A stretch of DNA of 64,000 bases, taken from contig JBMFRC010000001.1 of NCBI GenBank assembly GCA_049968235.1, forward strand, positions 288,001-352,000. The letters run 5' to 3'. Both the position numbers and the translations under genes were made by a program. Positions 8,102 to 57,416 of the stretch are shown here, one piece after another. This DNA comes from Candidatus Hydrogenedens sp. (lineage in GTDB: Bacteria > Hydrogenedentota > Hydrogenedentia > Hydrogenedentales > Hydrogenedentaceae). How positions within the stretch are numbered: the first letter of the stretch is position 1; each line of letters begins with the position of its first letter. The notes below the pieces were generated by a model, which made no database searches, had not been told where the DNA came from, and saw nothing but the letters and a program-made list of their open reading frames with translations.

Positions 8102-8102
8102 T

Positions 8103-41659: not shown

Positions 41660-42226
41660 ATGAAAATCCTGTCTTTATTGGGAAGCCCTAAAAAAAATGG
41701 GAACTCCGCACATGCATTGAACTATCTCGAAGAACAACTGAAACAACAGAACCATGAAATAAAACATATCCATGTCTCTTCCTTCCTTATTGAAGGGTGT
41801 AGGGAATGTTATTGGTGTAAACAGGAGGGGAATTTTTTGTGTTGCAATAACGATGATGCAATACCTATCTTAAAAGGAATGCTTGATTCAGATGCTATTA
41901 TCTTTTCTGCACCGACCTTTTGTTGGGGTTTTCCCGCACAAATGAAAGCCCTTTTCGACCGCATGTTCTGCCTGATTTCATGGAAAGAAGGAGATAGTGA
42001 AAATAAATCTTTGCTGAAAGGGAAAACTATGGCACTCATTGTAACTGCAGGGGGTGAAGTGAAAAATAATGCAGAACTTTTAGGAATTGCCTTCAACAAT
42101 ATGGCAGAATTTATGAATTGTAAATCTGCAGGGATAGTTTATATTGCCCCCTGCGAAGGTATTCATTCTATCAATGATAAGATAAAAAAACAATTAGACA
42201 ACTTAGCCCAAAATCTGAGTATCTAA
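41660..42226 (+). CDS. flavodoxin-like fold NAD(P)H-dependent FMN reductase or iron-sulfur flavoprotein-like protein
   Basis: MKILSLLGSPKKNGNS... is an FMN-reductase-like N-terminus, with a Cys cluster CRECYWCKQEGNFLCC. Confidence 0.55.
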   Translation: MKILSLLGSPKKNGNSAHALNYLEEQLKQQNHEIKHIHVSSFLIEGCRECYWCKQEGNFLCCNNDDAIPILKGMLDSDAIIFSAPTFCWGFPAQMKALFDRMFCLISWKEGDSENKSLLKGKTMALIVTAGGEVKNNAELLGIAFNNMAEFMNCKSAGIVYIAPCEGIHSINDKIKKQLDNLAQNLSI

Positions 42227-42464
42227 TATCTTTAATTGTAAAATAGATCTGCCATTACTTTGAAAAAAAAAGAATATTGTTATCATTTCTGCTGTTAGTA
42301 TGAGGCCCACGAAACGGATGTAATTGTATCTACAACCACATTGATATTACATTGCAATTATAAATTTAATTTTTATATCTTCTCACCCCCCTATATCTAC
42401 CATTCGATTATAGATAGCACTAATGGTATTTTCTATGAATACCTATGCTCATAGCCCTTGAGTA

Positions 42465-42506
42465 TGCAAGCCCTCCAGTTTCCCAGAGGGCTTGCATAAT
42501 ATTTTT
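42465..42506 (+). terminator. intrinsic-terminator-like hairpin (perfect 11-bp stem plus T-run)
   Basis: TGCAAGCCCTC, a 10-nt loop, GAGGGCTTGCA, then TAATATTTTTTGTT. It lies between the flavodoxin gene and the convergent surface-protein gene. Confidence 0.45.
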
Positions 42507-42523
42507 TGTTCAAGCAGTGAGTA

Positions 42524-43759
42524 TTATCTTTCGTTAGAATTATTCTTCAGGATTCCCCTTACCTTGCTATTTTGTGTCAATAACAAGAAGGAAAGAATTA
42601 CTAAAACAAATATATCACTCAGATGTGAATTTGTTGAAGGTCCACCGGAACCGCAAGATACAATGAAAGTTCTCTTGGCTCCTTTACTCATTACCAGTAT
42701 AACCTCTGTCCCCTTAACAACTTCAGTTCCAACAGAGGGCTCGGTTCGGATTATGCTCCCTTTCGGTACATCTTTGCTATATTCTTCTTTAATCGTTGCG
42801 GATACCTTAAGTCCTGCAGATGTTAGTATTTGAATAGCCTCGTCTTTAGATTTTCCTTTAACATCCGGCACTTTTACTTTCTGAATAGGTTCTCCTTCAT
42901 TACTTCCTTCGGGAGTACCTTCAACTACACCTTCAGGGGTTCCTTCTGGACTACCTTCCTGATGACCTTCGACTGTTCCTTCGCCTTCTGCATTCCCTTC
43001 GACAGAACCTTCTGTGCTTCCTTCTATACTACCCTCTTGCATACCTTCAGGAATGCCTTCTGTTGAACCTTCTTGTGCTCCTTCTCCTTCGAGAGTGCCT
43101 TCTATTATACCTTCTTGCTGTCCTTCGGTGATTCCTTCAACATTTCCTTCGCCTTCTGCAGGCGGTTCTAATGGAAGTATTTTAGGTGCTTTCGGGTCAT
43201 CAAACATGGGAACATAAGCAAATATATCGTTGATTTGGACTTGAGCCAAATTTATTTGTGCATCCCCGGTTTGTTTCATACGGAACAATACTTTGAGCAA
43301 TTCAAGACTTCCCTTAGCACCGATATTTTCAGAACTGCTTCCTGCAATTTTCAGACTACCTGTAGCATTTGCATTAGAGTTATAACTTAACTTCATATTG
43401 CTAACTGCATCACCTAATACGACCTCCATTACCTCCGCATATTCTTTATCGAAATTAATTACAAGAGAGAAGCCCGCTATATTGGATACATTGTTCATTA
43501 CCACAGATACCCACTTTTCAGAGCCTGCTGTTCCAGATAAGTAATCTGTTAATTGGGCATAAACAGTTGCATCCTCTTTTTCTACTCGTGCAAGGGTAGA
43601 CTCCGCAGACAAAGAACCTGCATCTGCCAGCCATTTTAAGTCGCTTATATAGTCTTCATAACTCTTTGCGTCTATTTTCTTTCCTGTTGGCATTACATCT
43701 TTACCTGTTAACCAGCGTTGTAGCATGCTGGAGTCAGCACTATCCACCATTCCATCCAT
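42524..43759 (-). CDS. surface protein segment A: cohesin-like domain, xxEG tetrapeptide-repeat linker, PASTA domain and a C-terminal Cys/Gly-motif + TM + basic anchor (probably the 3' part of a disrupted giant gene)
   Basis: Cohesin-like IAGFSLVINFDKEYAEVMEV...GSLELLKVLFRMKQTGDAQI, about 25 xxEG repeats, and PASTA VPDVKGKSKDEAIQILTSAGLKV. The C-terminus is SCGSGGPS...IFVLVILSFLLL...KVRG. The frame is open upstream to 43855 and encodes a dockerin repeat (SGDFNMDGMVDSADSSMLQRWL). Confidence 0.6.
   Translation of the reverse strand: MDGMVDSADSSMLQRWLTGKDVMPTGKKIDAKSYEDYISDLKWLADAGSLSAESTLARVEKEDATVYAQLTDYLSGTAGSEKWVSVVMNNVSNIAGFSLVINFDKEYAEVMEVVLGDAVSNMKLSYNSNANATGSLKIAGSSSENIGAKGSLELLKVLFRMKQTGDAQINLAQVQINDIFAYVPMFDDPKAPKILPLEPPAEGEGNVEGITEGQQEGIIEGTLEGEGAQEGSTEGIPEGMQEGSIEGSTEGSVEGNAEGEGTVEGHQEGSPEGTPEGVVEGTPEGSNEGEPIQKVKVPDVKGKSKDEAIQILTSAGLKVSATIKEEYSKDVPKGSIIRTEPSVGTEVVKGTEVILVMSKGAKRTFIVSCGSGGPSTNSHLSDIFVLVILSFLLLTQNSKVRGILKNNSNER
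42900..43170 (-). repeat. coding tandem repeat: about 25 units of 12 nt encoding xxEG tetrapeptides
   Basis: Periodic ...ccttc... on the plus strand, which is GAAGG(N) on the coding strand. Similar arrays lie at about 44950-45135, 45545-45715 (including a perfect 21-nt duplication encoding MSEGEG twice), 52330-52440 and 54650-54690. Confidence 0.7.
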
Positions 43760-43845
43760 ATTAAAGTCACCGGATTTCTGAATACAGGGATTTCCTCCTG
43801 TGTTATTTGTCCAATAATCCAGGATATATTGTGTGTCTAAATCGT

Positions 43846-46179
43846 TTACTTCATATTATTATCCGCATCACCAAAGACACATCCGTCTGTAACACACAAT
43901 TGTCCATCTTCTAATATAAGTTCTAACGGTTGTGTAAATGAGGAGATCACATCGTATAGGCGAACTCCATTGCCGGCTCCATCATCCGGAATAAGGTGTA
44001 ACTGTCCACATAAAGGACCTAAAACAGATAAATTGGGTTTAGCAATAATATTAAACAGAGTCCCAGCACCATACAAACTTTCTGCTTTTATTCCTGCTGC
44101 AGCAATTCGAACATTAATTGTCTCACCTTGAGGTATAGCTAATGATGCTATCATCATCCCACTAGTAATACCTGATGGTAATACGGTGATAGTCTCGGGG
44201 TCTGATATTAAGGCAGATGGCAATTCCGAATCAATCTGTATGGATGTTGCTGAAACATCATAAACTGATTTTGAGTTCACGGGAATACGAATAAGTATTT
44301 CATCAAGATTTTGTGGATTCGGTTGTAGCCAATAAAGACTGGTATCTGTTATATTAACCTGTTCAGGGAAGAATACGGTTAAGTATTGTCCACGAACCGT
44401 CTCCGAAGCATCTGATAACACAGTATAACGGTCCACATCACTTACAGCCTGTATGGCATATTGGTAGTAAATCCCTAATTCTACCGCATTATCTATATAT
44501 TCTAATGTTGTTAGATAACCTTCATAAGGCAACCTGTCCGGATTATTCAATCGTTGCCAATCTGTCAATGAATTCCCATCTCTATCTACTGTCCTGCGAT
44601 ACACATTATAGCCAGCAATATTATACTCAGGATTTGTATCCCATGCTACGCGAACACTATGCGGTCCACTATAAGGACGTGGACGGAATGATTTTTGAAT
44701 ATTTCCGGGGTCTAATTCAACAAGCAATTCAGCATTGGTATCCACAGGTTGTATCGTTTTGGGCTTATATTTCCGCTTTGTAAAGTCCAAACGATATGGC
44801 GGTTGCAATGTACCTAAATCTGGAAAGGCAAAACGTCCATTATTATCTGTTAGCACAGGTTCATTCCCTTTACTATCTGCAACGCTAATTTGGACTAATA
44901 CACCGGGAATCGGGCTTTTGCTTATACTATTTATCACCTGACCACGAACACCTGCATATTCGCCTTCGAATGTCCCTTCCGTAGTTCCTTCAATAGTTCC
45001 CTCCGGAATTCCTTCAATTACTCCTTCAGGTATTCCTTCAACATTACCATCCATAGGACCTTCGGGAATCCCTTCGATAACACCTTCAATTGTTCCTTCC
45101 GTTACACCTTCAGGTGTCCCTTCTTCACAGGGTCCTGTGGAAACCCAGATATCCACAGGTATTTCTATTGTATTCTCATAATTACAAGTGCCTTCTACAG
45201 CCATAGGTTCTTGCAAAGCGATGTATCCAGCGGGATAATTATTATCACATACCTCAACAATCTGTCCTAATAATAATCCATAATCTACAATTAATTGTTG
45301 TGCCTCTTCCAATGACATACCTATAACATTAGGAACTATGGTACAGGGTCCACAAGAGATAATCAGGTCAACGATTGTTCCAATCTCTACTGTATTTCCA
45401 CCACCGGGTATTTGTTCAACGACTGTGCCTGCCGGGTATTGGTCATTGCACATCTCAATAATAGCACCAATATTTAGGTTGGCATTACTAATTTCTCCCG
45501 TTGCTTCCTGTTGCGGAAGTCCTATCATATATGGAACTATAGTTGTTTCAATAGCACCTTCGCCTTCAGACATCCCTTCGCCTTCAGACATCCCTTCGCC
45601 TTCGAATAGCCCTTCTGAACTGCCTTCAATACTACCTTCGGTAGTTCCTTCAAATGAACCTTCTCCTTCTACAATACCTTCAACTACACCGGGTTCAGGC
45701 TCTCCAATAACAGGATTGAGTGGGTCTTCAAATCTTGGGGTATGTCCATATTTATCGTGTATCTGAACCTGAACAAATTTAATATCGCCTTTTCCATCTC
45801 GCTTAATCTTAAACTTTACTTTTACCAATTCAACTTCTCCAGAGGTTCCCAACTCTTCTTCACCTCCCGCACTTATCCGCAAACTGCTACTGGAACCAGA
45901 ATTTACTACTTCATAATTCCATCGCCATATATTTGCTGCATTCACAGGTTTTACCTGCTTTACTTCAGCAAAATCACTATCATAATTCAAGACAAATTCA
46001 AATCCTGCCACATTTGTTACTTCATCAGCCACAATGGCAATCCATTTATCACTGCCTGCAGACCCTTCTAATGTGCCACGGAACCACACCTTTACTCCCA
46101 CATTATTCTTTTCTAATTTGGCTAACTTTGCTTGTGCGGATAGGGAACCATGGGAAGCTAACCATTTCAATTCATCCAC
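43846..46179 (-). CDS. surface protein segment B: cohesin-like, EG linkers, 2 PASTA, CarboxypepD_reg-like, Fn3-like, cohesin-like, then dockerin repeat 1 (interrupted). No signal peptide of its own, so it is probably the middle part of a disrupted giant gene.
   Basis: The domains can be read off the translation. The frame is open upstream to an in-frame TGA at 46270-46272, and the upstream region encodes dockerin repeats GDVNNDSVIDSTDEQFVLDYW and GDINLDG*VDSADSSLIQRWL. At the 3' end a -1 shift inside dockerin repeat 1 (GDADNNMK* versus in-frame VNDLDTQYILDYW) leads into segment A. Confidence 0.6.
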   Translation of the reverse strand: MDELKWLASHGSLSAQAKLAKLEKNNVGVKVWFRGTLEGSAGSDKWIAIVADEVTNVAGFEFVLNYDSDFAEVKQVKPVNAANIWRWNYEVVNSGSSSSLRISAGGEEELGTSGEVELVKVKFKIKRDGKGDIKFVQVQIHDKYGHTPRFEDPLNPVIGEPEPGVVEGIVEGEGSFEGTTEGSIEGSSEGLFEGEGMSEGEGMSEGEGAIETTIVPYMIGLPQQEATGEISNANLNIGAIIEMCNDQYPAGTVVEQIPGGGNTVEIGTIVDLIISCGPCTIVPNVIGMSLEEAQQLIVDYGLLLGQIVEVCDNNYPAGYIALQEPMAVEGTCNYENTIEIPVDIWVSTGPCEEGTPEGVTEGTIEGVIEGIPEGPMDGNVEGIPEGVIEGIPEGTIEGTTEGTFEGEYAGVRGQVINSISKSPIPGVLVQISVADSKGNEPVLTDNNGRFAFPDLGTLQPPYRLDFTKRKYKPKTIQPVDTNAELLVELDPGNIQKSFRPRPYSGPHSVRVAWDTNPEYNIAGYNVYRRTVDRDGNSLTDWQRLNNPDRLPYEGYLTTLEYIDNAVELGIYYQYAIQAVSDVDRYTVLSDASETVRGQYLTVFFPEQVNITDTSLYWLQPNPQNLDEILIRIPVNSKSVYDVSATSIQIDSELPSALISDPETITVLPSGITSGMMIASLAIPQGETINVRIAAAGIKAESLYGAGTLFNIIAKPNLSVLGPLCGQLHLIPDDGAGNGVRLYDVISSFTQPLELILEDGQLCVTDGCVFGDADNNMK

Positions 46180-46269
46180 ATATCCTTTGCCCGCTGTTGA
46201 GATTTTTGGAGGTGTAATACTTTTTCTTGCTAACCAACGCTGAATTAAACTGGAATCCGCACTATCTAC

Positions 46270-47574
46270 TCACCCATCGAGATTAATATCTCCTGATTTT
46301 AAGATGCATGAATGTGCACCTACTTTCCTAACCCAATAATCCAGAACAAATTGCTCATCTGTACTATCAATTACACTATCATTATTTACATCTCCATGAA
46401 TACATCCCCCTGAAACGCATAATCGTCCATCCACAAGAAGCACAGGTAAGGTTCTGTCTGATTTTGAATTACATTATATAACCGAACACCATTTCCCACA
46501 CCATCATCAGGAACTAAATGTAATAAACCACACTCATTCAAAAGATTTAAGCGAGGTTTTGCAAGAATATTAAATAATACTCCAGAACCATATAAACTCT
46601 CTGCTATCCCACCAGCAGATGATATACGAACATTAATTTTATCTCCATTTCTAACGGCATTGGCACTTATATTCATACCTGCGGTAATACCTGAGGGCTC
46701 CACCGTAATTGTGTCGGGATTGAGCAATAAACTTCTGGGCAATTCCGCATCGATTTGTATGGAAGTAGTGGAAACATCATATACAGCCTCTGAATTAACA
46801 GGTATTCTTACTAATTGTTGTTATGGATTTTGAGGGTCTCTTTCCCAGAGAAACATACCGCTATCTTTATAATTTACTTGTTCCGGGAAGAAAATAGTTA
46901 AAAATTGCCCTACTACATCTTCCGAAGCATCCGAAAGATTGGAATAACGGTCGACATCACTAACTGCCTGTATTGCATATTGATAGCGAATACCCGGTTG
47001 TATTGCGGTATCTGTATATTCTAATCCTCCAATATATCCTTCATAAGGAGGTAATCCCGGATTATTCAATTTTGCCCAAATAGAACTTCCTACTGTCCGA
47101 CGATATACATTATAGCCAGCAATGTTATATTCAGGATTTGTATCCCATCCAATACGGACACTATTGGTTCCTCCATAAACACGAGGAATGGTGGGTCTCT
47201 GAATATTTCCCGGCTCTATTTCCGCAAAAAGTTCTGCACCCGAATCAACAGGTTGAACCGTTTTCGGTTTAAATTTATTCTTTGTAAAATCCAGACGATA
47301 GGGAGGTAATAAACTCCCTAAATCGGAAAATTCAAATAGCCCATTTTTCATCTGTTAAAACAGGCTCTGTACTCTGTTTATCTGCAATACTTATTCCAAC
47401 AAGTACTCCCTCTACAGGTTTTTTGCTAATACTGTTAATAACCTGTCCCTTAACACTAAAGACTTTTTCTGCTACTGCTTGATTAGTAATAGCACATGCT
47501 ATTACTAATAGTGATATGCTCAAAAATATATTATTTTTTACAAAAATTGACTTTGCCCTACTTTTTGCATTCAT
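46270..47574 (-). pseudogene. surface protein segment C: signal peptide, CarboxypepD_reg-like, Fn3-like, cohesin-like, dockerin; disrupted by one frameshift at ~47340, an in-frame TAA at 46812-46814, a frameshift at ~46420 and a TGA at 46270
   Basis: Three ORF fragments (47332-47574, 46821-47351, 46386-46742) plus a dockerin-encoding stretch align residue-by-residue with the C-terminal half of segment B. The disruptions are a +1 in an A5 run, a CAA-like codon replaced by TAA, a -1 in a TT/TTT run, and TGA where the paralog has ATG. Confidence 0.6.
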
Positions 47575-47745
47575 TTTAGGTCTCCTTTGATTTATTCGCT
47601 CCAGTAGTTGGTTATTTTTTTATCCTTATTAAATAGCATTTAATAACAAAATTTGCCTGTTTTTTTGATAATCGTTGCCTCAAATAAGAACTATGATTCT
47701 TATGTGATTAGTGGTGAATAGAAGAAAATAATACTATTTTTAGAC

Positions 47746-48843
47746 TCACTTCCCATCAACTTCACGAATAGTAAACTTCATATTTAAAATTTTCCCTTCC
47801 CGAAAAACCTTCATTTCCACAGAGTCACCGATAAATAAATCCCAATTTATAAAATCCACATCTGAAGGGTCTTCGACAGGTTGGCGGTTAATCTCTATGA
47901 TTACATCACCAGGACGCAATCCTGCCTGATACGCTGGACTTTCTTTTAATATTCGTGTTACGAAAACTCCTTTATCTACCCGAATACCTAATTCTCGTAG
48001 AAGTCGGGAGTCTATTGAATCAAGAGATTCCGTTTTAAATCCAAACCATGGGTCGCGACGTTTCCCAAATTTAATCAGTTCTTCCGCTACACGACGGACA
48101 CGATTGATGGGTATAGCAAAACTTAATCCCTGATACCCACCCGTTTTAGAAAAAATCATGGTATTAATCCCAATAACTTTACCCTGGCTGTTAACCAGAG
48201 GTCCTCCGCTATTGCCCGGATTTATTGCCGCATCGGTTTGAATAAGGTCCTGATATAATCGAGTATCTCCGGAAACATTTCGACTCACTTTACGATGAAC
48301 GGCAGATACAACACCTACACTGACCGTAGGACGAGGATCTTTCATTAGTGAACCAAAGGGATTTCCTATGGCGATAACCCATTCTCCAATATATAAATTA
48401 TCTGAGTCACCTAAAGGAATATAGGGGAAGTTCTTTCCACTCGCTTTCAGCACTGCAATATCTGTCCGCGGGTCCGCACCAATAAATTCTACATCCAGTT
48501 TTTCACCACTTGAAAGAGTTACAGAATTAATTTTACTGGCATTTTCCAGTACATGGTAGTTTGTTAAAATATACCCCGCCTCATCAAAAATAAATCCGCT
48601 ACCGATGGAAGAAATTTGCTGACGACGAATGGGAAAACCGAACAACTCAAAGAACGGGTCTAAATCGTCTGATTGATACTCTACCACATTGATAGTTACC
48701 ACTGCGGGTGATGCTTTTTCTACCGCTGTTACTATCGCATTGCGTCGTGAATCTGATATACTGTCCTGCGAAATCGCAGGGGGTGTGTAAAATATCAAAA
48801 TAAAAAGCAGTGTTATAATACTAATGAAGATATTTTTCTGCAT
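47746..48843 (-). CDS. HtrA/DegP-family periplasmic serine protease with one PDZ domain
   Basis: Signal peptide, then the catalytic triad context (TNYHVL, ...D..., NPGNSGGPLVN) and a C-terminal PDZ. Confidence 0.85.
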   Translation of the reverse strand: MQKNIFISIITLLFILIFYTPPAISQDSISDSRRNAIVTAVEKASPAVVTINVVEYQSDDLDPFFELFGFPIRRQQISSIGSGFIFDEAGYILTNYHVLENASKINSVTLSSGEKLDVEFIGADPRTDIAVLKASGKNFPYIPLGDSDNLYIGEWVIAIGNPFGSLMKDPRPTVSVGVVSAVHRKVSRNVSGDTRLYQDLIQTDAAINPGNSGGPLVNSQGKVIGINTMIFSKTGGYQGLSFAIPINRVRRVAEELIKFGKRRDPWFGFKTESLDSIDSRLLRELGIRVDKGVFVTRILKESPAYQAGLRPGDVIIEINRQPVEDPSDVDFINWDLFIGDSVEMKVFREGKILNMKFTIREVDGK

Positions 48844-49925: not shown

Positions 49926-52184
49926 ATGCATTTCTGGCTGATTAATGACAATGTTTTATTAAAATCTTCCCGTGCAGACATCGGTGGAAAAGGCTGGGGG
50001 CTGGTTCGATTAAAATTACAGGGATTAAATGTGCCACCTTTCGGAATAATCAGCACAGAAGGTGTGAAATATAAACTCTGGAAAACCGATACAGATTTTC
50101 AAAATGCAATAATGGCATGGTGTAAAGAGATATGGGATTGTTCCATAAGTAAGAAAGTAATCGTCCGCTCATCTGCATGTGAGGAAGACCATCAACATCA
50201 TTCTTTTGCAGGAAAGTTTTTAACAGAGGTTATAACAAAGCCAGAAGAACTTGTTCCAACACTGGACAGGATAGCCAAACATTATGCTTTAACTATAAAA
50301 ATGGATACGGGGAATTTTTCTGAAGGTCCCCATGGACTTGCAATTATTCTCCAGGAGTTTGTCAGTGGTGAAATCTCCGGCGTATGCTTTTCGACCCGAC
50401 CTATGAATGCAAATCCTCAACAAGTATATTGTGAAGTAGTAAATGGTGAAAATAAGTTGTTGGTTGATGGGGAAATACAACCCACTCGGATACTTTTTTA
50501 TCCCTCCACCGCAGAATTGATAGATTTTCAGGAAGGTTCTAATGGACCTGAATCAATACCTGAAGAATTATTAATAGAATTATCTCATGGGCTAATGAAG
50601 ATGGAATGGGATTACCGCACTGCAGTGGATATGGAATGGACATGGAATGGTAACAAGGTATGGTTTTTACAGATTCGCCCAATTACAAAGGTAACTCCTT
50701 CCCATAATTTATATCCAAAGGAATGTGCTACTTGCTGGTTTTTTGACCAACGTTTTATTGAACCGATTACAACTATTACCCAAACCACACTTATTCCGTT
50801 AATCCTGAGAAAGGCAATCACAGAGGGACTTAACATGCGACGAAAAAATACCCCCATTGAACCGTATTACTTTGGGGGTCAGGTGTATATCCCCCATCGG
50901 GCTTACTTCGATTTACTGGAGGGTTGTCCTAAATGGTGGCTTTCCTCCGATTTAAAACTGTTATTCCCTAATAACTGTGGTTGCCCGCATAAAAAAAAGA
51001 ACTTCCTGGGAATAGAATTCTGGCTGGATGCTTTTCGTTCATTGTTAAAACACTGGCGTGATGCTATTTTTGTGTTATGTCGCTGGGGACAATGGAAGAA
51101 GGATTTATCAAAGAAATTAAGTCTGTGGAATAAGGAGGATTTGTCAGAGATTACAACAGATGAATGGGTAACGCAATGGGAGCAATGCCAGAGATTATCC
51201 GAAGAATTTTTAGAAATACATCGCTGGGCAATACTCTGGTCCAGTTATGTATATCGTTTAGGGGGAAAGTATATCGTTCGTGGTAAGGAAAGACAGTATC
51301 CCTCTATTACGACACGGGCAAATCACATATTGACATCTTATTTATTCACCCGTGACATAAAATTATTAGCCCTCCTTCGCACTGAATATTCACACCGCAC
51401 AGAAAGTCTCGATTTTATATCTCCTCGATGGGGAGAATGGCTTTCCGGTGAGGAACAAAATGAATTGTTTAAAACGCAATTATTAGAGGAGAGGAAAGAT
51501 ATTCCATTAACATCACTGCAAACAAGGGAAAAAGCAGGTATTCTGTATCGTATTTTCGCAAAGTTTATACATCTGCGTGAGGAACAACGATTTGAATGGG
51601 AAAAAATATTAAATGTACAGAAAAAATTATTAAAGGAAGCAGGTAAACGATTGGTAGAAAAAGGTATCTTGATGGAGATAAATCAGGTCTGGTTTATAAG
51701 CGGGCTGGAATTAATGGAAGCACTTATAAAGGATAAGCCAATTAATCTAAAAGAAGTTTTGCTACGCCAACATCAATGGTGCGTTGAACATATATTTACA
51801 AAACCATTATTTATCAACGAAGGTGGTTTCATACTATCTACTTCCGAAAAAGATAAAGATACATGGTCAGGCTGGGGTGTGTCCGAAGGAAGAGTAAAAG
51901 GGACTGCCTATGTGAGCAGTAATCCGACTTCACTCCCATCCAATATCGCACATCCTCGTATTCTTGTAACACCTTGTTTAAATCCCGGACAGACATGGTG
52001 TCTGCAATACTGGGACGGTGTTCTATTGGAACGAGGCAGTGAACTGTCTCATCCTGCTATCATTGCACGGGAGATGAATATCCCCATGATTGCGAATTTA
52101 CCTGAGATTACACATAAACTAAACACGGGCGATTTAATTTATATAGATGCAACTTATGGTAAAGTTAGCCGTTTAAAATCTTAA
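49926..52184 (+). CDS. PEP-utilising enzyme family protein: N-terminal PPDK-type ATP-grasp (PEP/pyruvate-binding) domain plus C-terminal phosphohistidine mobile domain (rifampicin-phosphotransferase-like architecture)
   Basis: N-terminus ADIGGKGWGLVRL. The C-terminus has GRVKGTAYV... and ...ILVTPCLNPGQTW...ERGSELSHPAIIAREMNIPMIA (swivel His). There is no PEP-utilising TIM-barrel domain. Confidence 0.65.
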   Translation: MHFWLINDNVLLKSSRADIGGKGWGLVRLKLQGLNVPPFGIISTEGVKYKLWKTDTDFQNAIMAWCKEIWDCSISKKVIVRSSACEEDHQHHSFAGKFLTEVITKPEELVPTLDRIAKHYALTIKMDTGNFSEGPHGLAIILQEFVSGEISGVCFSTRPMNANPQQVYCEVVNGENKLLVDGEIQPTRILFYPSTAELIDFQEGSNGPESIPEELLIELSHGLMKMEWDYRTAVDMEWTWNGNKVWFLQIRPITKVTPSHNLYPKECATCWFFDQRFIEPITTITQTTLIPLILRKAITEGLNMRRKNTPIEPYYFGGQVYIPHRAYFDLLEGCPKWWLSSDLKLLFPNNCGCPHKKKNFLGIEFWLDAFRSLLKHWRDAIFVLCRWGQWKKDLSKKLSLWNKEDLSEITTDEWVTQWEQCQRLSEEFLEIHRWAILWSSYVYRLGGKYIVRGKERQYPSITTRANHILTSYLFTRDIKLLALLRTEYSHRTESLDFISPRWGEWLSGEEQNELFKTQLLEERKDIPLTSLQTREKAGILYRIFAKFIHLREEQRFEWEKILNVQKKLLKEAGKRLVEKGILMEINQVWFISGLELMEALIKDKPINLKEVLLRQHQWCVEHIFTKPLFINEGGFILSTSEKDKDTWSGWGVSEGRVKGTAYVSSNPTSLPSNIAHPRILVTPCLNPGQTWCLQYWDGVLLERGSELSHPAIIAREMNIPMIANLPEITHKLNTGDLIYIDATYGKVSRLKS

Positions 52185-55100
52185 GTTCGAAAGGTCTGAC
52201 TTGTCCAACGGGTGTTCTCTCCTTCGCATACCACTCATAGCAAGTAATAACATGCCCATCAACACAAAATCCAATAGATATTTTAACCAATTGTCTCCAT
52301 CCCTGGATTTATGATTACACCCACAAATTCCAGTATTTTGCCCCTCTCCTTCCCCTTCTCGAGTGCCCTCAACATTCCCTTCCACTATTCCTTCCGGATT
52401 ACCTTCTTGAGTTCCTTCCAGAGTTCCTTCACTAACTACTATACCTGCTTCTGCTTTATCAATATATCCATCCTTATTGGTATCAGCACTATCAAAAGTA
52501 TCTCGGGACAGGGTGGAATATCGTGCCACTGCTTCTTCATAGGAAACTTTCCCATCCTTATTCGTATCCACCAAATCAAAATTTGTTTTTAGGTCATTTA
52601 TGAATTGCTCTACCCCGGTTATGGTAATAGAAGCACCTTTTGCATTAATTACTCCATACCAACTCAGGTCATCTCCAAATTCCCCCTTTATTTTTACTTC
52701 GCGTATTTGAATGTTTATTTTCTTTGATGTCATCGTTGTGGGTTTAAACTTTATTTGTATAATTCGTCCTTTTTCTTTTGTTGTAATGGGTTTTTCGCTA
52801 CTTATTGAAACTTTCAAATAACCCTCACCGACTTCTGTATCCTTCTTAAAGTTGCTGGCAATATCTGCCATGTTTAATCCGTAGAAATTTATACCTTCAT
52901 CATAGGTTAAGAGCAAATCCATTCCCGCAACACCTAATAATGAACTTAATTCTATACCTGTGCGATATTCATTGTTTGAGTCCGGTGTTAGGTTATCTAC
53001 AACAATTTCCACCGTACGATTATTTTCCGTTTCTAACAAGGCTTTTTCCCCAATCACGGTTGAACTCGGATTGATTGGAAGCCCTGCCAATTTACGCAGT
53101 AGTAACGACACATCCGCACAATCTAAAATTCCATCTCCATTAAAATCACCTCTCCGTTTATCACATTCCAAATCAACAATACCTGCTTTGCGAACAATCT
53201 TGCGCAGGAACACAATCGTATCAGACATACCAATGTAACCATCAGTATCCATATCTCCATAGATGCAACGACTACTAATACAATTCGTATCTGGGTTTTC
53301 TTCCAATACATTGAGTTGTCCATGAACCAATTCTACTGGCAATTCCTTCTGCTGGGTATCTTTAATAATAACCTTCTGCAATTTCAGGTCTGTATCCTGA
53401 GCACAACTTCCTGCCACTGTATTCTGTCGCACACGAAAAACCATATCAAAGAGGTGTCCTTCTCCATAAAGCACTTTCTTCTCATTATCAACTCTGGGTC
53501 CCGCATGGAATTTTATAACACCCTGTGTACGGGTATCCGAAACAACCTCAAGATTTCGTGTTACAACCGTTTTTTGAACCTCTACAAGTTCAAGCACTGT
53601 GTTGTTGTAACTCACATTAATATCAATCGTATAGGGTTCCAATCCCCGTACACTGTTTATATTTATCGGTATCTGAATTGTATCCCCACTTCCTTCTGGT
53701 ATCCAATCGATTGTAGGTATCCATACACGTAGCTTACCCGGTTCTGCTTTGACAGGCTCTGTAGGGTCGCTTTGTTGTTGATTGGTAGCAATAGCAATCA
53801 AACGATAATACCATGCCCGAGAGGTATCCACTTCGTTATCTGTGTAATTTGTACCTGTAATAATATTTGAGGAAACAGTAATCCACGGTCCGTTTCGTGT
53901 TTCGCTTCGTTCTAATTGGTATCCTGCAAGATTTCGCTCCACATTAGGCTCCCAGATAAGATAAACATGGTCTATCCCTGAAAAAACCTGCAATCCATGA
54001 GGGGTTGAAATCTTTGTCCCAGCAGGGTCAGGACCATTACTTACAATTAACTCAACCGTTGTTCCGTTCAATACGGAACTTCCTCCAACAGGAGATTGTC
54101 CCATTACAACATTTTGTGAAACGGTATCGCTATACTGCATTACTGTACGGGTCAGCAAACCCGTAGATTGGATTTGCCCTATTGCAGAAGTTATATTCTG
54201 CCCAATAACATCCGGTACCGTGATATATGTGTTTCCAGAACATTGTCCTGTTGAAACCCAAATTGTAACTTCCGCACCTCGATTTACTCCACTATAAGCA
54301 ATTGGTGATTGGCGTATTACCTGCCCCATGGCAACATAATTGTTACATTCCCGTTCCACCTTAACATGCAAATCCGCTATCTGTATTGCCTCATTCGCCT
54401 GCTGTTCGCTTCTCCCTACAACATCTGGAACCAATACACCCGGACATAATCCACTGGATACAGTTAACTGAATATAGGTTCGTGATGAAATTACATCTCC
54501 CGATGATGGGATTTGACTCAGGACATTTCCCTGTGCCACTGTGTTACTACAGTTATAAGTCGTACGGATTCTATTCAGTCCTACACCTTCAAGAGTGTTT
54601 TTTGCTTGTTGTTCTGTCATACCGACCACCCCCGGAATAGTTACGAAGATTTCTCCTTCTCCTGTTCCTTCGCCCTCTCCCTCTCCTATAAGGTCTACAA
54701 TCCATTTAAGTAATGGATAATCTGTCCCTTCATTTGCAACCCATATATTAACAAAATCCCAATCGTTGTATGTTGCTTGCTTATACATTTCTATTGTGGT
54801 TTTTCCTGTTCCACCATCGGAAAACGATGTCCCGGCAGATTGCACATCCCAATAACTGGACACTACTGTTCCTCCATCGTTATACCCAACAAGCCCACCA
54901 ACATATAGTTTCCCCGTAACATTGGCACTGCTATAACAATTACGAATATTTGTTTCAAAAGAATTCTCAGTATTCATTTGGTACCCAACCAATCCACCGA
55001 TAAACGAATTTCCGCCAACAAAGGAATCATAAACAAAACTATCTGTTATATTGCCACCATAATTTATCCCTACAAAACCACCCACTCCATAATCAGCTGT

Positions 55101-57416
55101 TTCGCCATTCACAAGTATTTCACCGGCAACACATCTTAATATTTTCCCCTTATTTCCACCGACGAATCCACCAATACTATCATCTTGGCTTATTCCCGAA
55201 ATATAACTTGCCAGGACACCACATTCCACAATTTCACACTCACTATCAACAACAACACCCGCTATAGCACCCACAAAATAATACCCTGTAAAACTACTTT
55301 CAACAATTATTAAATTTTGAATCTTTCCCGGAGAGGTTACAATCCCAAACAGAGCTGTATAATCCGCCTCAGAATTATCAATATAAAGGTTAGAAATAAT
55401 ATGGTTTTGCCCATTAAAATTACCTCTAAATGGTTTTTCCCATGTTCCTATGGGTCTAAACCCTTTCCCATTATTCCAGTTGACTGTATCACTTGCATCT
55501 ATATCTTGAGTCAAAATATATGAACCAAAAGGTGGATAATCCGGGTCATTCCCTATCTTTTGCAACTCCTCAATACTATCTATTTCAATAGTTGGACAGG
55601 GACCTTTGAAAACGAACAAATATACTTCGCTGTTCTGTATAACTTGTGCTCCACCTTCGGGTGATTGACCTATAACAGTACCCACCGGAGTAATTTCTTC
55701 ACCGCACCCATAATCGACAATTACATGGAAACCCATTTCTTGTAGAGTAGTAACAGCATTTGCTTCTGTCATTCCCATTACATCCGGCATGTTAACATAA
55801 ACACAGCGTCCTGTTGAAACAACAATATATACAGTGCTATCTATTTGCACAACATTTCCTGCAATGGGTTCCTGCTCTATAACAACCCCTTCAGGAATAT
55901 TGTCATCACAACGGTATAGGACATTGGCAGAGAGATTTTGTACCTGAACTGTATTTATAGCGGTAGTTTCATCCATCCCGATAACATCAGGTATTGTTAT
56001 AGAACAGGGTCCTCGTGAAATAAGCAAAGAAATCTCCACATCAGGTAATTCATTTGTGCCCGGTACGGGGTTTTGAGTTATCACTGCCCCAGAAGGAACT
56101 CCATCATGGCAATCATAATATGTAGTGATTGTACCCGTAAACCCGGAGGAACGAAGTAAATTTATAGCTTCTGTCCCATTCATTCCTACAACATTAGGTA
56201 GGGGGATGAAACACGGACCTGTGGACACAATAATGGAAACAGTACCATTAAGCTCAACCGATGCCCCTGCTCCGGGCTGTTGGTCCATAACTACCCCCGC
56301 AGGATATATATTGCTACAACTATAAGACACATCAGCAATCAATCCCAATCCATTTAACATATTAACTGCATTTTCTTCCATCATTCCTAACAAACTTGGA
56401 ACTTCCACCGTATGTTGTATATTTATAACCCATCTCAAATAGGGATAGTCTGTTCCCTCTTCTATACCCCATACATTCGTGAAATCCCAGCCTGCATAAG
56501 TCGCCTGTTGTTTCATTTCTCCCGTAGTTTTCCCTGTTCCACCATCAGAAAAGAACATTTGGGACACAGTCGTATCCCAATAACTGGATGTTACAGTCCC
56601 CCCATCATTAAATCCGATAAGTCCACCTATATACATGGTTCCTGCTACAGCCGAACTACTATAACAATTTGTAACTGTGCCAGTGCTTTTCTTTGAATTT
56701 TCGAGTATTCCAACCAGACCACCGACACCGTATGCTCCTGCTATTGAGGTGATATATGAAGATGAATACACACAACTATTTATAATAACTCCACCTGTAT
56801 TACGACCCACCAATCCACCCACTCCATATTGAGCATAACTATCATAAATTGTCGAATTAGAAACTACACATCTATCTATAACTCCATAATTTCCTCCTAC
56901 CAATCCACCAACACTATTATATATGCTTCCCATCCCTTCAATATCTGAAGAGGCAACTCCACATTCTCTGATTTCTCCCGCCATATTTAATCCAACCAAT
57001 CCCCCGATAAATAAAGAACCTGCGATATTGGAATTAAATAAAATAACATTGTGAACATTCCCGCCGGATATATTTCCAAACAAACCTGCAAATTCAGATT
57101 GTCTATTAATATAAAGATAGTAAATACCATAATTCTGACCATCAAAACTCCCTGTAAATGGATTATTCGTATCCCCTATCGGTTTAAATCCTCTGCCACT
57201 ATCCCAATTAATTGTATCGCTGGCATCTATATCCCGTGTTAATACATAATTCCCGTTAAGTGGATATTCAGGCTCATTCCCTATTCTCTGCAAATCTACA
57301 ATATTGCTTATAGGAATACCTTGTGCGGAAACCAAAATACACATGCAAAAAACAAAAATGGTCAATAGTGATAAAATATAGGTAGATTCTCTCGTAGACA
57401 TTTTACAATACCTCAA
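52173..57416 (-). CDS. giant (1747-aa) secreted surface protein: signal peptide, GLUG-like beta-helix module, 4 PASTA, second GLUG-like module, EG linker, 3 PASTA, Fn3-like, cohesin-like, dockerin, cohesin-like, EF-hand pair, xxEG linker, C-terminal Cys/Gly-motif + TM + basic anchor
   Basis: An intact ORF. Repeated GGLVG motifs occur in two ~300-aa modules that are about 50% identical to each other. There are seven PASTA units (…PDV[IV]GM…). The dockerin is GDMDTDGYIGMSDTIVFLRK…GDFNGDGILDCADVSLLLRKL and the EF-hand pair DTNKDGKVSYEE / DTNKDGYIDKAE. The C-terminus is GICGCNHKS…LLDFVLMGMLLLAMSGMRRRE. Confidence 0.8.
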   Translation of the reverse strand: MRYCKMSTRESTYILSLLTIFVFCMCILVSAQGIPISNIVDLQRIGNEPEYPLNGNYVLTRDIDASDTINWDSGRGFKPIGDTNNPFTGSFDGQNYGIYYLYINRQSEFAGLFGNISGGNVHNVILFNSNIAGSLFIGGLVGLNMAGEIRECGVASSDIEGMGSIYNSVGGLVGGNYGVIDRCVVSNSTIYDSYAQYGVGGLVGRNTGGVIINSCVYSSSYITSIAGAYGVGGLVGILENSKKSTGTVTNCYSSSAVAGTMYIGGLIGFNDGGTVTSSYWDTTVSQMFFSDGGTGKTTGEMKQQATYAGWDFTNVWGIEEGTDYPYLRWVINIQHTVEVPSLLGMMEENAVNMLNGLGLIADVSYSCSNIYPAGVVMDQQPGAGASVELNGTVSIIVSTGPCFIPLPNVVGMNGTEAINLLRSSGFTGTITTYYDCHDGVPSGAVITQNPVPGTNELPDVEISLLISRGPCSITIPDVIGMDETTAINTVQVQNLSANVLYRCDDNIPEGVVIEQEPIAGNVVQIDSTVYIVVSTGRCVYVNMPDVMGMTEANAVTTLQEMGFHVIVDYGCGEEITPVGTVIGQSPEGGAQVIQNSEVYLFVFKGPCPTIEIDSIEELQKIGNDPDYPPFGSYILTQDIDASDTVNWNNGKGFRPIGTWEKPFRGNFNGQNHIISNLYIDNSEADYTALFGIVTSPGKIQNLIIVESSFTGYYFVGAIAGVVVDSECEIVECGVLASYISGISQDDSIGGFVGGNKGKILRCVAGEILVNGETADYGVGGFVGINYGGNITDSFVYDSFVGGNSFIGGLVGYQMNTENSFETNIRNCYSSANVTGKLYVGGLVGYNDGGTVVSSYWDVQSAGTSFSDGGTGKTTIEMYKQATYNDWDFVNIWVANEGTDYPLLKWIVDLIGEGEGEGTGEGEIFVTIPGVVGMTEQQAKNTLEGVGLNRIRTTYNCSNTVAQGNVLSQIPSSGDVISSRTYIQLTVSSGLCPGVLVPDVVGRSEQQANEAIQIADLHVKVERECNNYVAMGQVIRQSPIAYSGVNRGAEVTIWVSTGQCSGNTYITVPDVIGQNITSAIGQIQSTGLLTRTVMQYSDTVSQNVVMGQSPVGGSSVLNGTTVELIVSNGPDPAGTKISTPHGLQVFSGIDHVYLIWEPNVERNLAGYQLERSETRNGPWITVSSNIITGTNYTDNEVDTSRAWYYRLIAIATNQQQSDPTEPVKAEPGKLRVWIPTIDWIPEGSGDTIQIPININSVRGLEPYTIDINVSYNNTVLELVEVQKTVVTRNLEVVSDTRTQGVIKFHAGPRVDNEKKVLYGEGHLFDMVFRVRQNTVAGSCAQDTDLKLQKVIIKDTQQKELPVELVHGQLNVLEENPDTNCISSRCIYGDMDTDGYIGMSDTIVFLRKIVRKAGIVDLECDKRRGDFNGDGILDCADVSLLLRKLAGLPINPSSTVIGEKALLETENNRTVEIVVDNLTPDSNNEYRTGIELSSLLGVAGMDLLLTYDEGINFYGLNMADIASNFKKDTEVGEGYLKVSISSEKPITTKEKGRIIQIKFKPTTMTSKKINIQIREVKIKGEFGDDLSWYGVINAKGASITITGVEQFINDLKTNFDLVDTNKDGKVSYEEAVARYSTLSRDTFDSADTNKDGYIDKAEAGIVVSEGTLEGTQEGNPEGIVEGNVEGTREGEGEGQNTGICGCNHKSRDGDNWLKYLLDFVLMGMLLLAMSGMRRREHPLDKSDLSNLRF

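What the first reader, a model, noticed from the sequence alone, without database searches (positions are those of the whole stretch)
42524..47574. Tandem paralogous copy of the giant surface gene, broken into three ORF groups by two in-frame stops and three single-base frameshifts
Minus-strand segments C, B and A align module-by-module with each other and with the 52-57 kb gene. Only C has a signal peptide and only A has the C-terminal anchor, so C-B-A most simply reads as one ~1680-aa gene. It is interrupted five times. First, a +1 in an A5 run at ~47340. Second, TAA at 46812-46814: NPQNP*QQLVRIP, where the paralog has NPQNLDEILIRIP. Third, a -1 at ~46420 (TT where TTT is expected). Fourth, TGA at 46270-46272 inside dockerin repeat 2: DINLDG*VDSADSS, where the next copy has DFNMDGMVDSADSS. 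Fifth, a -1 at ~43850 inside dockerin repeat 1 (AAGTAA where AAGGTAA is expected). Two of the five disruptions fall at equivalent dockerin positions of successive copies. This could be recent pseudogenisation, phase- or repeat-mediated variation, or assembly error in a repeat-rich region.
Basis: seen in the sequence. Interest (0 to 1): 0.7.

Follow-up and report, generated by a model that had tools for sequence, protein, structure and literature searches.

The report
Recently broken two-unit surface-protein gene
A 5-kb gene for a large cell-surface protein of an uncultured Candidatus Hydrogenedens bacterium has recently been knocked out by three one-base frameshifts and two stop codons; it is an ordinary young pseudogene, still picking up different damage in closely related strains.

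Summary
Minus strand 47574-42524 reads as one 1683-aa protein, broken by three 1-base frameshifts and two in-frame stops. Two coordinates need correcting: TAA is at 46821-46823, and frameshift 3 is at 46448-46451. The protein has two 50%-identical units between one signal peptide and one membrane anchor. Each unit runs CarboxypepD_reg, FN3, cohesin, dockerin, cohesin, Glu/Gly linker, PASTA.

It is not a tandem copy of the 52-57 kb gene. Four genes separate them, and identity is about 23% over shared modules.

The lesions look real. Two other deposited MAGs of the same population (99.7-99.97% identical) carry the A5 frameshift and the TGA. One has CAA where the window has TAA. The other is intact at frameshift 3 but has a G5->G4 frameshift 43 nt downstream, a 4-nt deletion and an 18-nt repeat-unit loss. 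Relatives at 55-75% identity are intact at all five sites.

Inactivation is recent. The correct frame has 2 stops against 135 and 167 in the other frames, and dN/dS against relatives is 0.05-0.16. The 39 other genes I took as intact (50.9 kb) show no frameshift.

Verdict: a genuine, recent, still-decaying pseudogene, deposited at NCBI as separate proteins. Low interest.

The parts
42524..47574 (-). Whole pseudogene: a former 1683-codon gene for a secreted, membrane-anchored surface protein (stop codon 42524-42526)
   Evidence: Three-frame translation and stitching. Pfam finds PASTA, CarboxypepD_reg, Dockerin_1 and Cohesin above their cut-offs on the stitched protein, plus a sub-threshold fn3 match (17.3 bits against a 25-bit cut-off).
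47470..47574 (-). Signal-peptide-like N-terminus (residues 1-35, MNAKSRAKSIFVKNNIFLSISLLVIACAITNQAVA)
   Evidence: Apart from the C-terminal anchor and a marginal window inside a PASTA domain (residue 733), this is the only strongly hydrophobic segment (Kyte-Doolittle 2.68). No signal-peptide predictor was run.
47344..47348 (-). Lesion 1: +1 frameshift, an A5 run where A4 keeps the frame. It splits CarboxypepD_reg domain 1.
   Evidence: L005 has GAT GAA AAT GGG. Present in all three assemblies.
46821..46823 (-). Lesion 2: TAA nonsense codon, a C->T change from CAA (Gln)
   Evidence: L001 has CAA here and so a 321-aa ORF. Relatives have CAA/Gln.
46448..46451 (-). Lesion 3: -1 frameshift (CC-TT where CCC-TT or CC-TTT is needed), at the end of cohesin-like module 1a
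   Evidence: L002 has CCC. Relatives are in frame.
46406..46410 (-). G5 run, intact in the window. It is G4 in sister assembly L002, giving that strain an alternative frameshift.
46270..46272 (-). Lesion 4: TGA nonsense codon at loop position 7 of the second Ca-binding repeat of dockerin 1. The ancestral codon was Leu (TTA, TTG or CTG).
   Evidence: Present in all three assemblies. TGA is an ordinary stop in 6 of 39 intact genes.
46100..46103 (-). Four bases (ATGT) present in the window and deleted in L002. This is an extra frameshift lesion in that strain.
45557..45615 (-). 18-nt tandem repeat encoding (GEGMSE)n in Glu/Gly linker 1. One unit fewer in L002 (an in-frame slippage polymorphism).
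43846..43854 (-). Lesion 5: -1 frameshift (ATG AAG -TA A) at loop position 7/8 of the first Ca-binding repeat of dockerin 2
   Evidence: Same in L001. In GCA_049971155.1 contig L014 ends exactly here, at window 43850.
44950..47454 (-). Unit 1: CarboxypepD_reg (47454-47199), FN3 (47186-46902), cohesin-like 1a (46820-46414), dockerin 1 (46395-46222), cohesin 1b (46098-45721), Glu/Gly linker (45702-45547), two PASTA (45546-45127), Glu/Gly linker (45126-44950)
   Evidence: Pfam. Motif-to-coordinate mapping. Unit 1 against unit 2 is 50% identical.
42680..44949 (-). Unit 2: CarboxypepD_reg (44949-44695), FN3 (44682-44383), cohesin-like 2a (44301-43891), dockerin 2 (43872-43700), cohesin 2b (43567-43193), Glu/Gly linker (43168-42887), PASTA (42877-42680)
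42527..42667 (-). C-terminal anchor: FIVSCG motif, spacer of about 12 residues, hydrophobic helix, basic tail
   Evidence: Kyte-Doolittle 2.71. The motif is conserved in intact relatives P0009-P0012 and P0018. No NCBIfam model matches it.

Best explanation
This is a genuine, recently inactivated gene (a young pseudogene) in a population of an uncultured Candidatus Hydrogenedens species.

The ancestral gene encoded one 1683-aa exported protein held in the membrane by a C-terminal helix. It was built from two diverged copies of a unit: CarboxypepD_reg, FN3, cohesin, dockerin, cohesin, Glu/Gly linker, PASTA.

The A4->A5 insertion near the 5' end and the Leu->TGA change are shared by all three known assemblies, so they are the oldest lesions. 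Either one abolishes the full-length product. After that the locus was free to collect more damage, and different strains carry different sets:
- CAA->TAA in two of the three assemblies.
- Loss of a C at 46450 in two assemblies, against loss of a G at 46406 in the third.
- A 4-nt deletion and an 18-nt repeat-unit loss in one assembly.
- A lost G at 43849 in at least two assemblies.

Shown: the lesions, their presence or absence in sister assemblies, the intact state in relatives, and the preserved frame with low dN/dS.

Inferred: the order of events, loss of function, and the ancestral role. I infer that role to be a self-associating envelope or surface protein, because cohesin and dockerin sit in the same chain and PASTA lies next to the anchor.
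For: (a) The lesions are real and exact.

(b) Two separately deposited MAGs of the same population cover the locus. GCA_049969095.1 is 99.97% identical over 16.9 kb with no gaps. GCA_049971155.1 is 99.7% identical. Both carry the same A5 frameshift and the same TGA. GCA_049969095.1 also carries frameshifts 3 and 5.

(c) The lesions segregate between assemblies. L001 has CAA against TAA. L002 has CCC+G4 against CC+G5, a 4-nt deletion and an 18-nt unit loss. Between GCA_049971155.1 and the window, 4 of 5 indels lie in the 4.9 kb of this gene. The fifth is intergenic, and none lies in the intact coding sequence among the 14.6 kb compared outside it (binomial P=0.016).

(d) Every relative is intact at all five sites it covers: L004 units 1 and 2, L005, both L011 genes and L006. 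The ancestral codons can be read off them.

(e) The frame is preserved. There are 2 stops against 135 and 167 in the other frames. dN/dS against L004 and L005 is 0.05-0.16, with dS saturated. The gene was therefore under purifying selection until recently.

(f) The 39 other genes I took as intact (50.9 kb, 352 homopolymer runs of 5 or more) have no frameshift. P=7e-4 that three random indels all hit this gene.

(g) ORF boundaries cut through a CarboxypepD_reg domain and both dockerins. Only the first ORF has a signal peptide and only the last has an anchor.

(h) The longest DNA repeat between the two units is 259 nt at 75% identity. That is too diverged for assembly collapse.

(i) No intact allele exists among 15 billion catalogued proteins. 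The 90% clusters hold only the fragments from these three MAGs.
Against: - No reads could be inspected. The three MAGs probably come from one study, so a systematic platform error at the three homopolymer sites cannot be formally excluded. It would not explain the two nonsense substitutions or the 4-nt deletion.
- The lesions are biased towards the 5' end. Four of five lie in the first 1.3 kb (P about 0.018), and 7 of 8 events pooled over the assemblies lie in the first 2.0 kb (P about 0.008). An 807-codon stretch is untouched. Uniform neutral decay does not predict this.
- SNPs between assemblies show no clear excess of nonsynonymous changes inside the gene compared with outside it.
- Expression was not tested.
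Confidence: 0.88

Rival explanations
1. Sequencing or assembly artefact. The gene is intact in the organism, and the indels and stops come from homopolymer miscalls, a chimeric consensus of mixed strains, or mis-joining of repeats.
For: - All three frameshifts sit in short runs (A5, CC/TT, G/GG).
- The window's contig is 421 kb, so long reads may have been used.
- A second gene in the window (8088-10241) also has two homopolymer frameshifts.
- Derived alleles are distributed incompatibly among the three assemblies, as a chimeric consensus would give.
- One assembly breaks exactly at the frameshift 5 site.
Against: - The same A5 and TGA occur in three separately deposited assemblies. Two of these are fragmented (10-20 kb contigs) and so were probably assembled differently.
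- Two lesions are base substitutions to stop codons, and one strain has a 4-nt deletion. None of these is a homopolymer error.
- There are no frameshifts in 50.9 kb of other coding sequence carrying 352 runs of 5 or more and 1106 runs of 4 or more.
- The frameshifts of the second broken gene are also reproduced in another assembly.
- The units are only 50% identical in protein and at most 75% in DNA, so repeat collapse is not possible.
Confidence: 0.05
2. Reversible phase variation, or repeat-mediated on/off switching of a surface antigen by slippage in the short tracts.
For: - It is a surface protein.
- Tract lengths do differ between strains (CC/CCC, G5/G4, the 18-nt unit).
- A relative's gene (L011 gene 1) is broken at a G8 run.
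Against: - There are five simultaneous lesions, two of them nonsense substitutions that slippage cannot revert.
- The tracts are 1-5 nt, far below the length of about 7-8 nt or more typical of contingency loci (my own knowledge).
- No assembly has an open frame. The CCC allele that repairs frameshift 3 comes with a new frameshift 43 nt away.
- No intact allele is found in public protein collections.
Confidence: 0.04
3. Functional split genes or programmed recoding. Either the ORFs (80, 176, 118, 57, 777 and 411 aa) are expressed as separate proteins, or ribosomes frameshift and read through to make the full protein.
For: - NCBI deposits the pieces as separate proteins (hypothetical proteins ACP5UA_01250, 01255 and 01260; 'PASTA domain-containing protein').
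- The 807-codon open stretch is strikingly intact.
Against: - ORF boundaries fall inside folded domains: CarboxypepD_reg 1, dockerin 1 and dockerin 2.
- No internal ORF has a signal peptide.
- The lesion sites are not conserved in any relative, and are polymorphic even within the population.
- The sequence around the frameshift sites shows no X XXY YYZ slippery heptamer (read by eye).
- TGA and TAA are normal stops in this genome.
Confidence: 0.03

Closest known systems
Young bacterial pseudogenes formed by frameshift and nonsense mutations (Kuo & Ochman 2010, PMC2916853; Danneels et al. 2018, PMC6054270; both found, abstracts only read)
   Same: - A formerly selected gene disabled by small indels and point nonsense mutations.
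- Lesions accumulate once the first has struck.
- Lesions are strain-specific within one species.
- Small deletions outnumber insertions: five deletions against one insertion over the three assemblies.
   Different: - It is seen here in a free-living uncultured MAG population, not in a host-restricted pathogen or symbiont.
- The lesions are unusually concentrated in the 5' 40% of the gene.
Cohesin-dockerin modules of cellulosomal scaffoldins and non-cellulosomal cohesins (PDB 3l8q type II cohesin dyad of ScaA; 4dh2; 2xdh Archaeoglobus cohesin)
   Same: - Pfam Cohesin and Dockerin_1 score above their cut-offs.
- The AlphaFold model of the intact relative P0009 matches cohesin structures with Foldseek probability 1.0, and the best hit is a two-cohesin dyad.
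- The dockerins have the duplicated 12-residue Ca-binding loop plus helix.
   Different: - Cohesins and a dockerin lie in the same polypeptide.
- No glycoside hydrolase or carbohydrate-binding module is in the protein or in neighbouring genes.
- The modules are combined with CarboxypepD_reg, FN3, PASTA and a C-terminal membrane helix. Binding was not tested.
The neighbouring 1747-aa gene, window 52173-57416 (-)
   Same: - Same strand.
- Shares FN3, cohesin, an EF-hand or dockerin-like module, a second cohesin, PASTA domains, Glu/Gly linkers and a Cys-containing C-terminal anchor.
   Different: - Only 23-24% identical over about 500-630 aa.
- It has two GLUG-repeat regions and seven PASTA domains, and lacks CarboxypepD_reg.
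- It is separated by four genes, three of them on the other strand, so it is a distant paralog and not a tandem copy.
PASTA-domain proteins (PknB/Stk1 kinases, class B penicillin-binding proteins)
   Same: Three PASTA domains with a strong Pfam match (130 bits).
   Different: No kinase or transpeptidase domain. NCBIfam PknB_PASTA_kin scores 52-57 bits against a cut-off of 450.
Simple-sequence contingency (phase-variable) loci of surface proteins (own knowledge)
   Same: - A surface-protein gene whose reading frame differs between strains at mononucleotide tracts.
   Different: - The tracts are too short.
- There are multiple irreversible lesions.
- No ON allele was observed.

Membership tests
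Bacterial pseudogene | Homology along its whole length to intact genes in relatives, spanning the lesion sites | tested here: met
   tblastn and alignment to L004, L005, L006, L011 and P0009-P0012. All relatives are in frame and carry sense codons at the five sites.
Bacterial pseudogene | At least one inactivating lesion (frameshift or premature stop) relative to those homologs | tested here: met
   Three 1-base indels and two nonsense codons.
Bacterial pseudogene | The lesions are in the DNA of the organism, not in the assembly | tested here: met
   They are reproduced in two further deposited assemblies, with strain-specific additions, and they cluster by gene.
Bacterial pseudogene | Relaxed selection after inactivation | tested here: inconclusive
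   Indels between strains are enriched in the gene (4 of 5, P=0.016). The SNP syn/nonsyn pattern is uninformative. dN/dS of 0.05-0.16 against relatives reflects the long functional past.
Bacterial pseudogene | No functional product | not testable with these tools
   Needs transcriptome or proteome data.
Cohesin-dockerin (cellulosome-type) proteins | Cohesin and dockerin domains recognised by the family models | tested here: met
   Pfam Cohesin 46.5 bits (cut-off 24.1, 2 stretches). Dockerin_1 48.9 bits (cut-off 22.9, 2 stretches).
Cohesin-dockerin (cellulosome-type) proteins | Cohesin jelly-roll fold | tested here: met
   The model of intact relative P0009 (mean pLDDT 75) hits cohesin structures. 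The top hit is the 3l8q cohesin dyad, E=1e-9. The test was on a 60%-identical homolog, not on the pseudogene itself.
Cohesin-dockerin (cellulosome-type) proteins | Association with carbohydrate-active enzymes or a scaffoldin system | tested here: not met
   No GH or CBM domain in the protein. The neighbours are HtrA, ThiS/ThiE, a flavodoxin-like protein and a multihaem cytochrome.
Cohesin-dockerin (cellulosome-type) proteins | Ca-dependent cohesin-dockerin binding | not testable with these tools
   Needs biochemistry.
   Four genes intervene. Identity is 23-24% over the C-terminal module set only, and the N-terminal architecture differs.
Phase-variable contingency locus | A long simple-sequence tract whose length change alone switches the frame ON and OFF | tested here: not met
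   The tracts are A5, CC and G. Five lesions include two nonsense substitutions, and no assembly has an open frame.
Programmed ribosomal frameshift or stop-codon recoding | Conservation of the shift or stop site in homologs, and a slippery sequence | tested here: not met
   The sites are absent from all relatives and polymorphic within the population. TGA and TAA are used as ordinary stops.

The most novel reading that the evidence does not exclude
Loss of this cohesin-dockerin-PASTA surface-protein family may be recurrent and selected in Candidatus Hydrogenedens, not neutral.

Three separate lineages carry independently broken copies:
- this population, with 5-6 lesions;
- FWWL01019251, with a 26-nt tandem duplication;
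- Ga0116168_1000254 gene 1, broken at a G8 run.

The only other broken gene in the window lies beside glycosyltransferase and nucleotidyl-transferase genes, so it may belong to a surface-polysaccharide cluster. The 5' bias of the lesions could mean that unit 2 is still kept, for example as a recombination donor for paralogs.

This would point to phage- or predator-driven remodelling of the cell surface in a poorly known phylum. The family also carries an undescribed C-terminal [RK]FI[VI]SCG-TM sorting-like signal.
Probability: 0.15. Interest if true: 0.45.

Novelty: new member of a known kind. Interest (0 to 1): 0.2.

Why it matters
- Annotation. In the public MAG records the pieces are deposited as separate 'hypothetical' and 'PASTA domain-containing' proteins. 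They should be one pseudogene. Their fragments already sit in protein databases as 80-, 118-, 176-, 321- and 411-aa entries.
- Population genetics. The locus is a small, clean example of a pseudogene caught early, with lesions still segregating among near-identical strains of an uncultured bacterium.
- The family. It points to a little-studied family of Hydrogenedens surface proteins with cohesin and dockerin in one chain.
- It does not open a new question or reveal a new mechanism.

Tried and rejected
- Promoter and terminator scan of 42200-47800: counts were at shuffle level, so uninformative.
- NCBIfam on the C-terminal anchors at E<=10: no model matched.
- PDB sequence search with unit 2: only two weak dockerin-region hits, E about 0.004.
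- Scan of GTDB representative genomes: the window's own genome is not among them. Only H. terephthalaticus (57%) and a 1.8-kb fragment were found.
- Metagenome scan: three loci, none near-identical.
- Synonymous versus nonsynonymous classification of the 16 inter-assembly SNPs: a mix both inside and outside the gene, so it does not discriminate.
- dN/dS: dS is saturated (pS about 0.7), so it shows past constraint but cannot date the inactivation.
- TGA reassignment (codes 4 or 25) or selenocysteine: rejected. TGA ends 6 of 39 intact genes, and homologs have Leu at the site.
- Repeat-collapse misassembly: rejected. The best inter-unit DNA repeat is 259 nt at 75% identity.
- Literature search for Hydrogenedentes plus dockerin: nothing specific.
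Full report
OBSERVATION

Translating the minus strand of 42400-47700 in three frames gives a chain of open segments that hand over to one another at five points. At base level these are:
- an A5 run at 47344-47348 (one A too many);
- TAA at 46821-46823;
- a missing base at 46448-46451 (GAA CC- TTA CCT);
- TGA at 46270-46272;
- a missing base in ATG AAG -TA A at 43846-43854.

Everything else is as described. With the three indels repaired, the frame runs for 1683 codons with only the two stops. The two other frames of the same DNA have 135 and 167 stops.

ANATOMY

Pfam on the stitched protein finds three PASTA stretches (130.7 bits), two CarboxypepD_reg, two Dockerin_1 and two Cohesin, plus a weak FN3. 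The protein is an internal duplication. Residues 37-871 and 872-1683 align at 50% identity over 758 positions.

Each unit runs CarboxypepD_reg, FN3, a cohesin-like module, dockerin, cohesin, Glu/Gly-rich linker, then PASTA (two in unit 1, one in unit 2). The first cohesin-like module of each unit is not called by Pfam. It does align to the Pfam-recognised cohesin of the 1747-aa neighbour.

An AlphaFold model of the intact 60%-identical relative P0009 (mean pLDDT 75) has as its best PDB match a two-cohesin dyad, 3l8q, at E=1e-9. Dozens of single cohesins follow.

Apart from a marginal window inside a PASTA domain (residue 733), only residues 14-20 and 1650-1656 are strongly hydrophobic. There is therefore one signal-peptide-like N-terminus and one C-terminal helix. 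The lesions cut through CarboxypepD_reg 1 and through both dockerins.

RELATION TO THE 52-57 KB GENE

The 1747-aa gene shares the FN3-cohesin-dockerin/EF-hand-cohesin block at 23-24% identity, and PASTA domains at about 30-35%. It has GLUG repeats and seven PASTA domains, and lacks the CarboxypepD_reg domain. HtrA, ThiS, ThiE and a PEP-utilising enzyme lie between the two genes. It is a distant paralog nearby, not a tandem copy.

ARE THE LESIONS REAL?

An exact-protein look-up with the neighbouring HtrA and flavodoxin genes found the same locus in two other NCBI MAGs: GCA_049969095.1 (L001) and GCA_049971155.1 (L002 and L014). The window itself is from a third MAG, with locus tags ACP5UA_* and a 421-kb contig. 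All three are named Candidatus Hydrogenedens sp..

L001 differs from the window by 5 substitutions and no gap over 16,941 nt. One of the five is C for T at 46823, so L001 has CAA (Gln) where the window has TAA, and it carries a 321-aa ORF.

L002 shares the A5, the TAA and the TGA, and differs as follows:
- CCC at 46450, which repairs lesion 3.
- G4 instead of G5 at 46406-46410, which makes a new frameshift 43 nt downstream.
- A 4-nt deletion at 46100-46103.
- One fewer copy of a perfect 18-nt (GEGMSE) repeat at 45557-45574.

L002 ends at 44036, and the other contig of that MAG ends exactly at 43850, the site of lesion 5.

Between that MAG and the window, four of five indels lie in the 4.9 kb of this gene. 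The fifth is an intergenic C6/C7 run, and none lies in the intact coding sequence among the 14.6 kb compared outside the gene (binomial P=0.016).

In the window, the 39 other genes I took as intact (50.9 kb) contain 352 homopolymer runs of 5 or more and no frameshift. These include ORFs of 1747 and 1148 aa. The chance that three random indels all fall in this gene is 7e-4.

The longest DNA repeat between the two units is 259 nt at 75% identity, so repeat collapse cannot explain the breaks. TGA ends 6 of the 39 genes and TAA ends 27, so the code is standard.

I could not inspect reads, and the three MAGs may share a sequencing platform. That leaves a small residual probability for artefact at the three homopolymer sites. 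It does not apply to the two substitutions or the 4-nt deletion.

ANCESTRAL STATES

The relatives recovered were:
- FWWL01019251 (L004/L009; 65-75% identical, also a two-unit gene);
- a Hydrogenedens MAG contig (L005, P0002);
- H. terephthalaticus (L006/L010);
- Ga0116168_1000254 (L011);
- intact single-unit proteins P0009-P0012 of 695-794 aa.

In an alignment of eight units, every relative is in frame and has a sense codon at every lesion site it covers. Their codons give the ancestral states:
- GAT GAA AAT GGG (A4) at lesion 1;
- CAA at lesion 2;
- TTA, TTG or CTG (Leu) at lesion 4;
- a conserved GTA (Val) whose G is missing at lesion 5.

TIMING

Against L004 and L005, pN is 0.15-0.24 while pS is about 0.7 (saturated), giving dN/dS of 0.05-0.16. 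The gene was therefore under purifying selection for nearly all of its divergence. The almost stop-free frame and the lesions still segregating among strains that are 99.7-99.97% identical show that inactivation is very recent.

The A5 insertion and the TGA are shared by all three assemblies, so they are the oldest lesions. No intact allele is present in the protein collections. The 90%-identity clusters contain only the fragments of these three MAGs, and the best other hits are at most 66% identical.

RIVALS

- Artefact is addressed above.
- Phase variation fails. The tracts are 1-5 nt, two lesions are nonsense substitutions, and no assembly has an open frame.
- Split functional genes or recoding fail. 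The boundaries fall inside domains, the internal ORFs lack signal peptides, the sites are not conserved in any relative, and they are polymorphic within the population.

WHAT THE PROTEIN WAS (inference)

It was an exported protein tethered by a C-terminal helix, with PASTA next to the anchor and two cohesins flanking a dockerin in each unit. No carbohydrate-active enzyme domain is in the protein or in neighbouring genes. It is therefore a non-cellulosomal cohesin-dockerin protein. Its most likely role is a self-associating envelope or surface-layer component or adhesin. In most relatives the unit is a separate gene with its own signal peptide and anchor, arranged in tandem (L006, L007, L011). 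The window and L004 instead have two units fused into one frame.

COMPARISON AND NOVELTY

The phenomenon matches ordinary young bacterial pseudogenes (PMC2916853, PMC6054270, abstracts only). The only unusual features are modest. First, the lesions are 5'-biased (P about 0.01-0.02). Second, the TGA and lesion 5 both fall at position 7 or 7/8 of a dockerin Ca-binding loop, which I treat as coincidence. Third, other lineages have independently broken family members. I rate it a new member of a known kind, with low interest. Its practical value is correcting the annotation of the deposited fragments.

Noticed in passing
window 8088-10241 (+): A second broken gene. It reads as a bi-domain oxidoreductase of about 710 aa (ADH_N, ADH_zinc_N, then GFO_IDH_MocA N- and C-terminal domains), split into three ORFs by two homopolymer frameshifts. 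One is GGG where GGGG gives VVFGAGILG, at about 8640. The other is an A9 run at about 9701-9709. Family matches run across both junctions on the stitched protein. The same ORF boundaries appear in GCA_049969095.1 contig JBMFPN010000337.1. The gene lies beside glycosyltransferase and nucleotidyl-transferase genes.
   Followed up: partly
window 42527-42667; P0009-P0012 and P0018 C-termini; window 52173-52330: The family has a conserved C-terminal tripartite signal: [RK]-F-I-[VI]-S-C-G, a spacer of about 12 residues, a hydrophobic helix and a basic tail. The giant gene carries a variant, GICGC. It resembles exosortase- or myxosortase-type sorting signals, but no NCBIfam model matches it even at E<=10.
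   Followed up: partly
L004/L009 (FWWL01019251.1) 1925-1980: The closest relative (65-75% identity, also a two-unit gene) is itself split into 652-aa and 952-aa ORFs. The cause is a 26-nt imperfect tandem duplication (ACCGTTGGGGCTATTAYTGAAATATG x2) inside a PASTA domain. This could be a real lesion or a misassembly.
   Followed up: partly
L011 (Ga0116168_1000254) 7713-7720: Gene 1 of a tandem pair of single-unit family genes is frameshifted at a G8 run inside its second cohesin; G7 would restore NMGGKGSGVELLKV. The same 582-aa truncated product is recorded three times, from NCBI, ENA and JGI sources (P0013-P0015). The intact ortholog P0009 has no poly-G there.
   Followed up: partly
window 43850 and 44036 (ends of L014 and L002, GCA_049971155.1): In that MAG the locus is split over two contigs. 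One ends exactly at the frameshift 5 site, and 185 nt between the ends are unassembled. This may reflect allele heterogeneity at that site in that sample.
   Followed up: no
window 46823, 46450, 50277, 50537: Derived alleles group the three assemblies in three incompatible ways. TAA is shared by the window and L002. The CC frameshift is shared by the window and L001. Two SNPs are shared by L001 and L002. This implies either recombination within the population or chimeric MAG consensus sequences.
   Followed up: no
window 42386: An intergenic C6 run is C7 in L014. It lies between the convergent flavodoxin-like gene and the 3' end of the pseudogene. It is the only indel outside the pseudogene in the comparison with that MAG.
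   Followed up: no
window 47574-45557 versus 45556-42524: The lesions are biased towards the 5' end. Four of the window's five lesions lie in the first 1.3 kb, and 7 of 8 events pooled over the assemblies lie in the first 2.0 kb (P about 0.018 and 0.008). The 807-codon stretch 46269-43849 is untouched. This is unexplained.
   Followed up: partly
window 25030-26562 (-): The SHMT homolog is 510 aa, and the Pfam SHMT profile matches it in two stretches (best 168-442 to profile positions 110-399). This suggests an insertion or N-terminal extension relative to typical SHMTs of about 415 aa.
   Followed up: no
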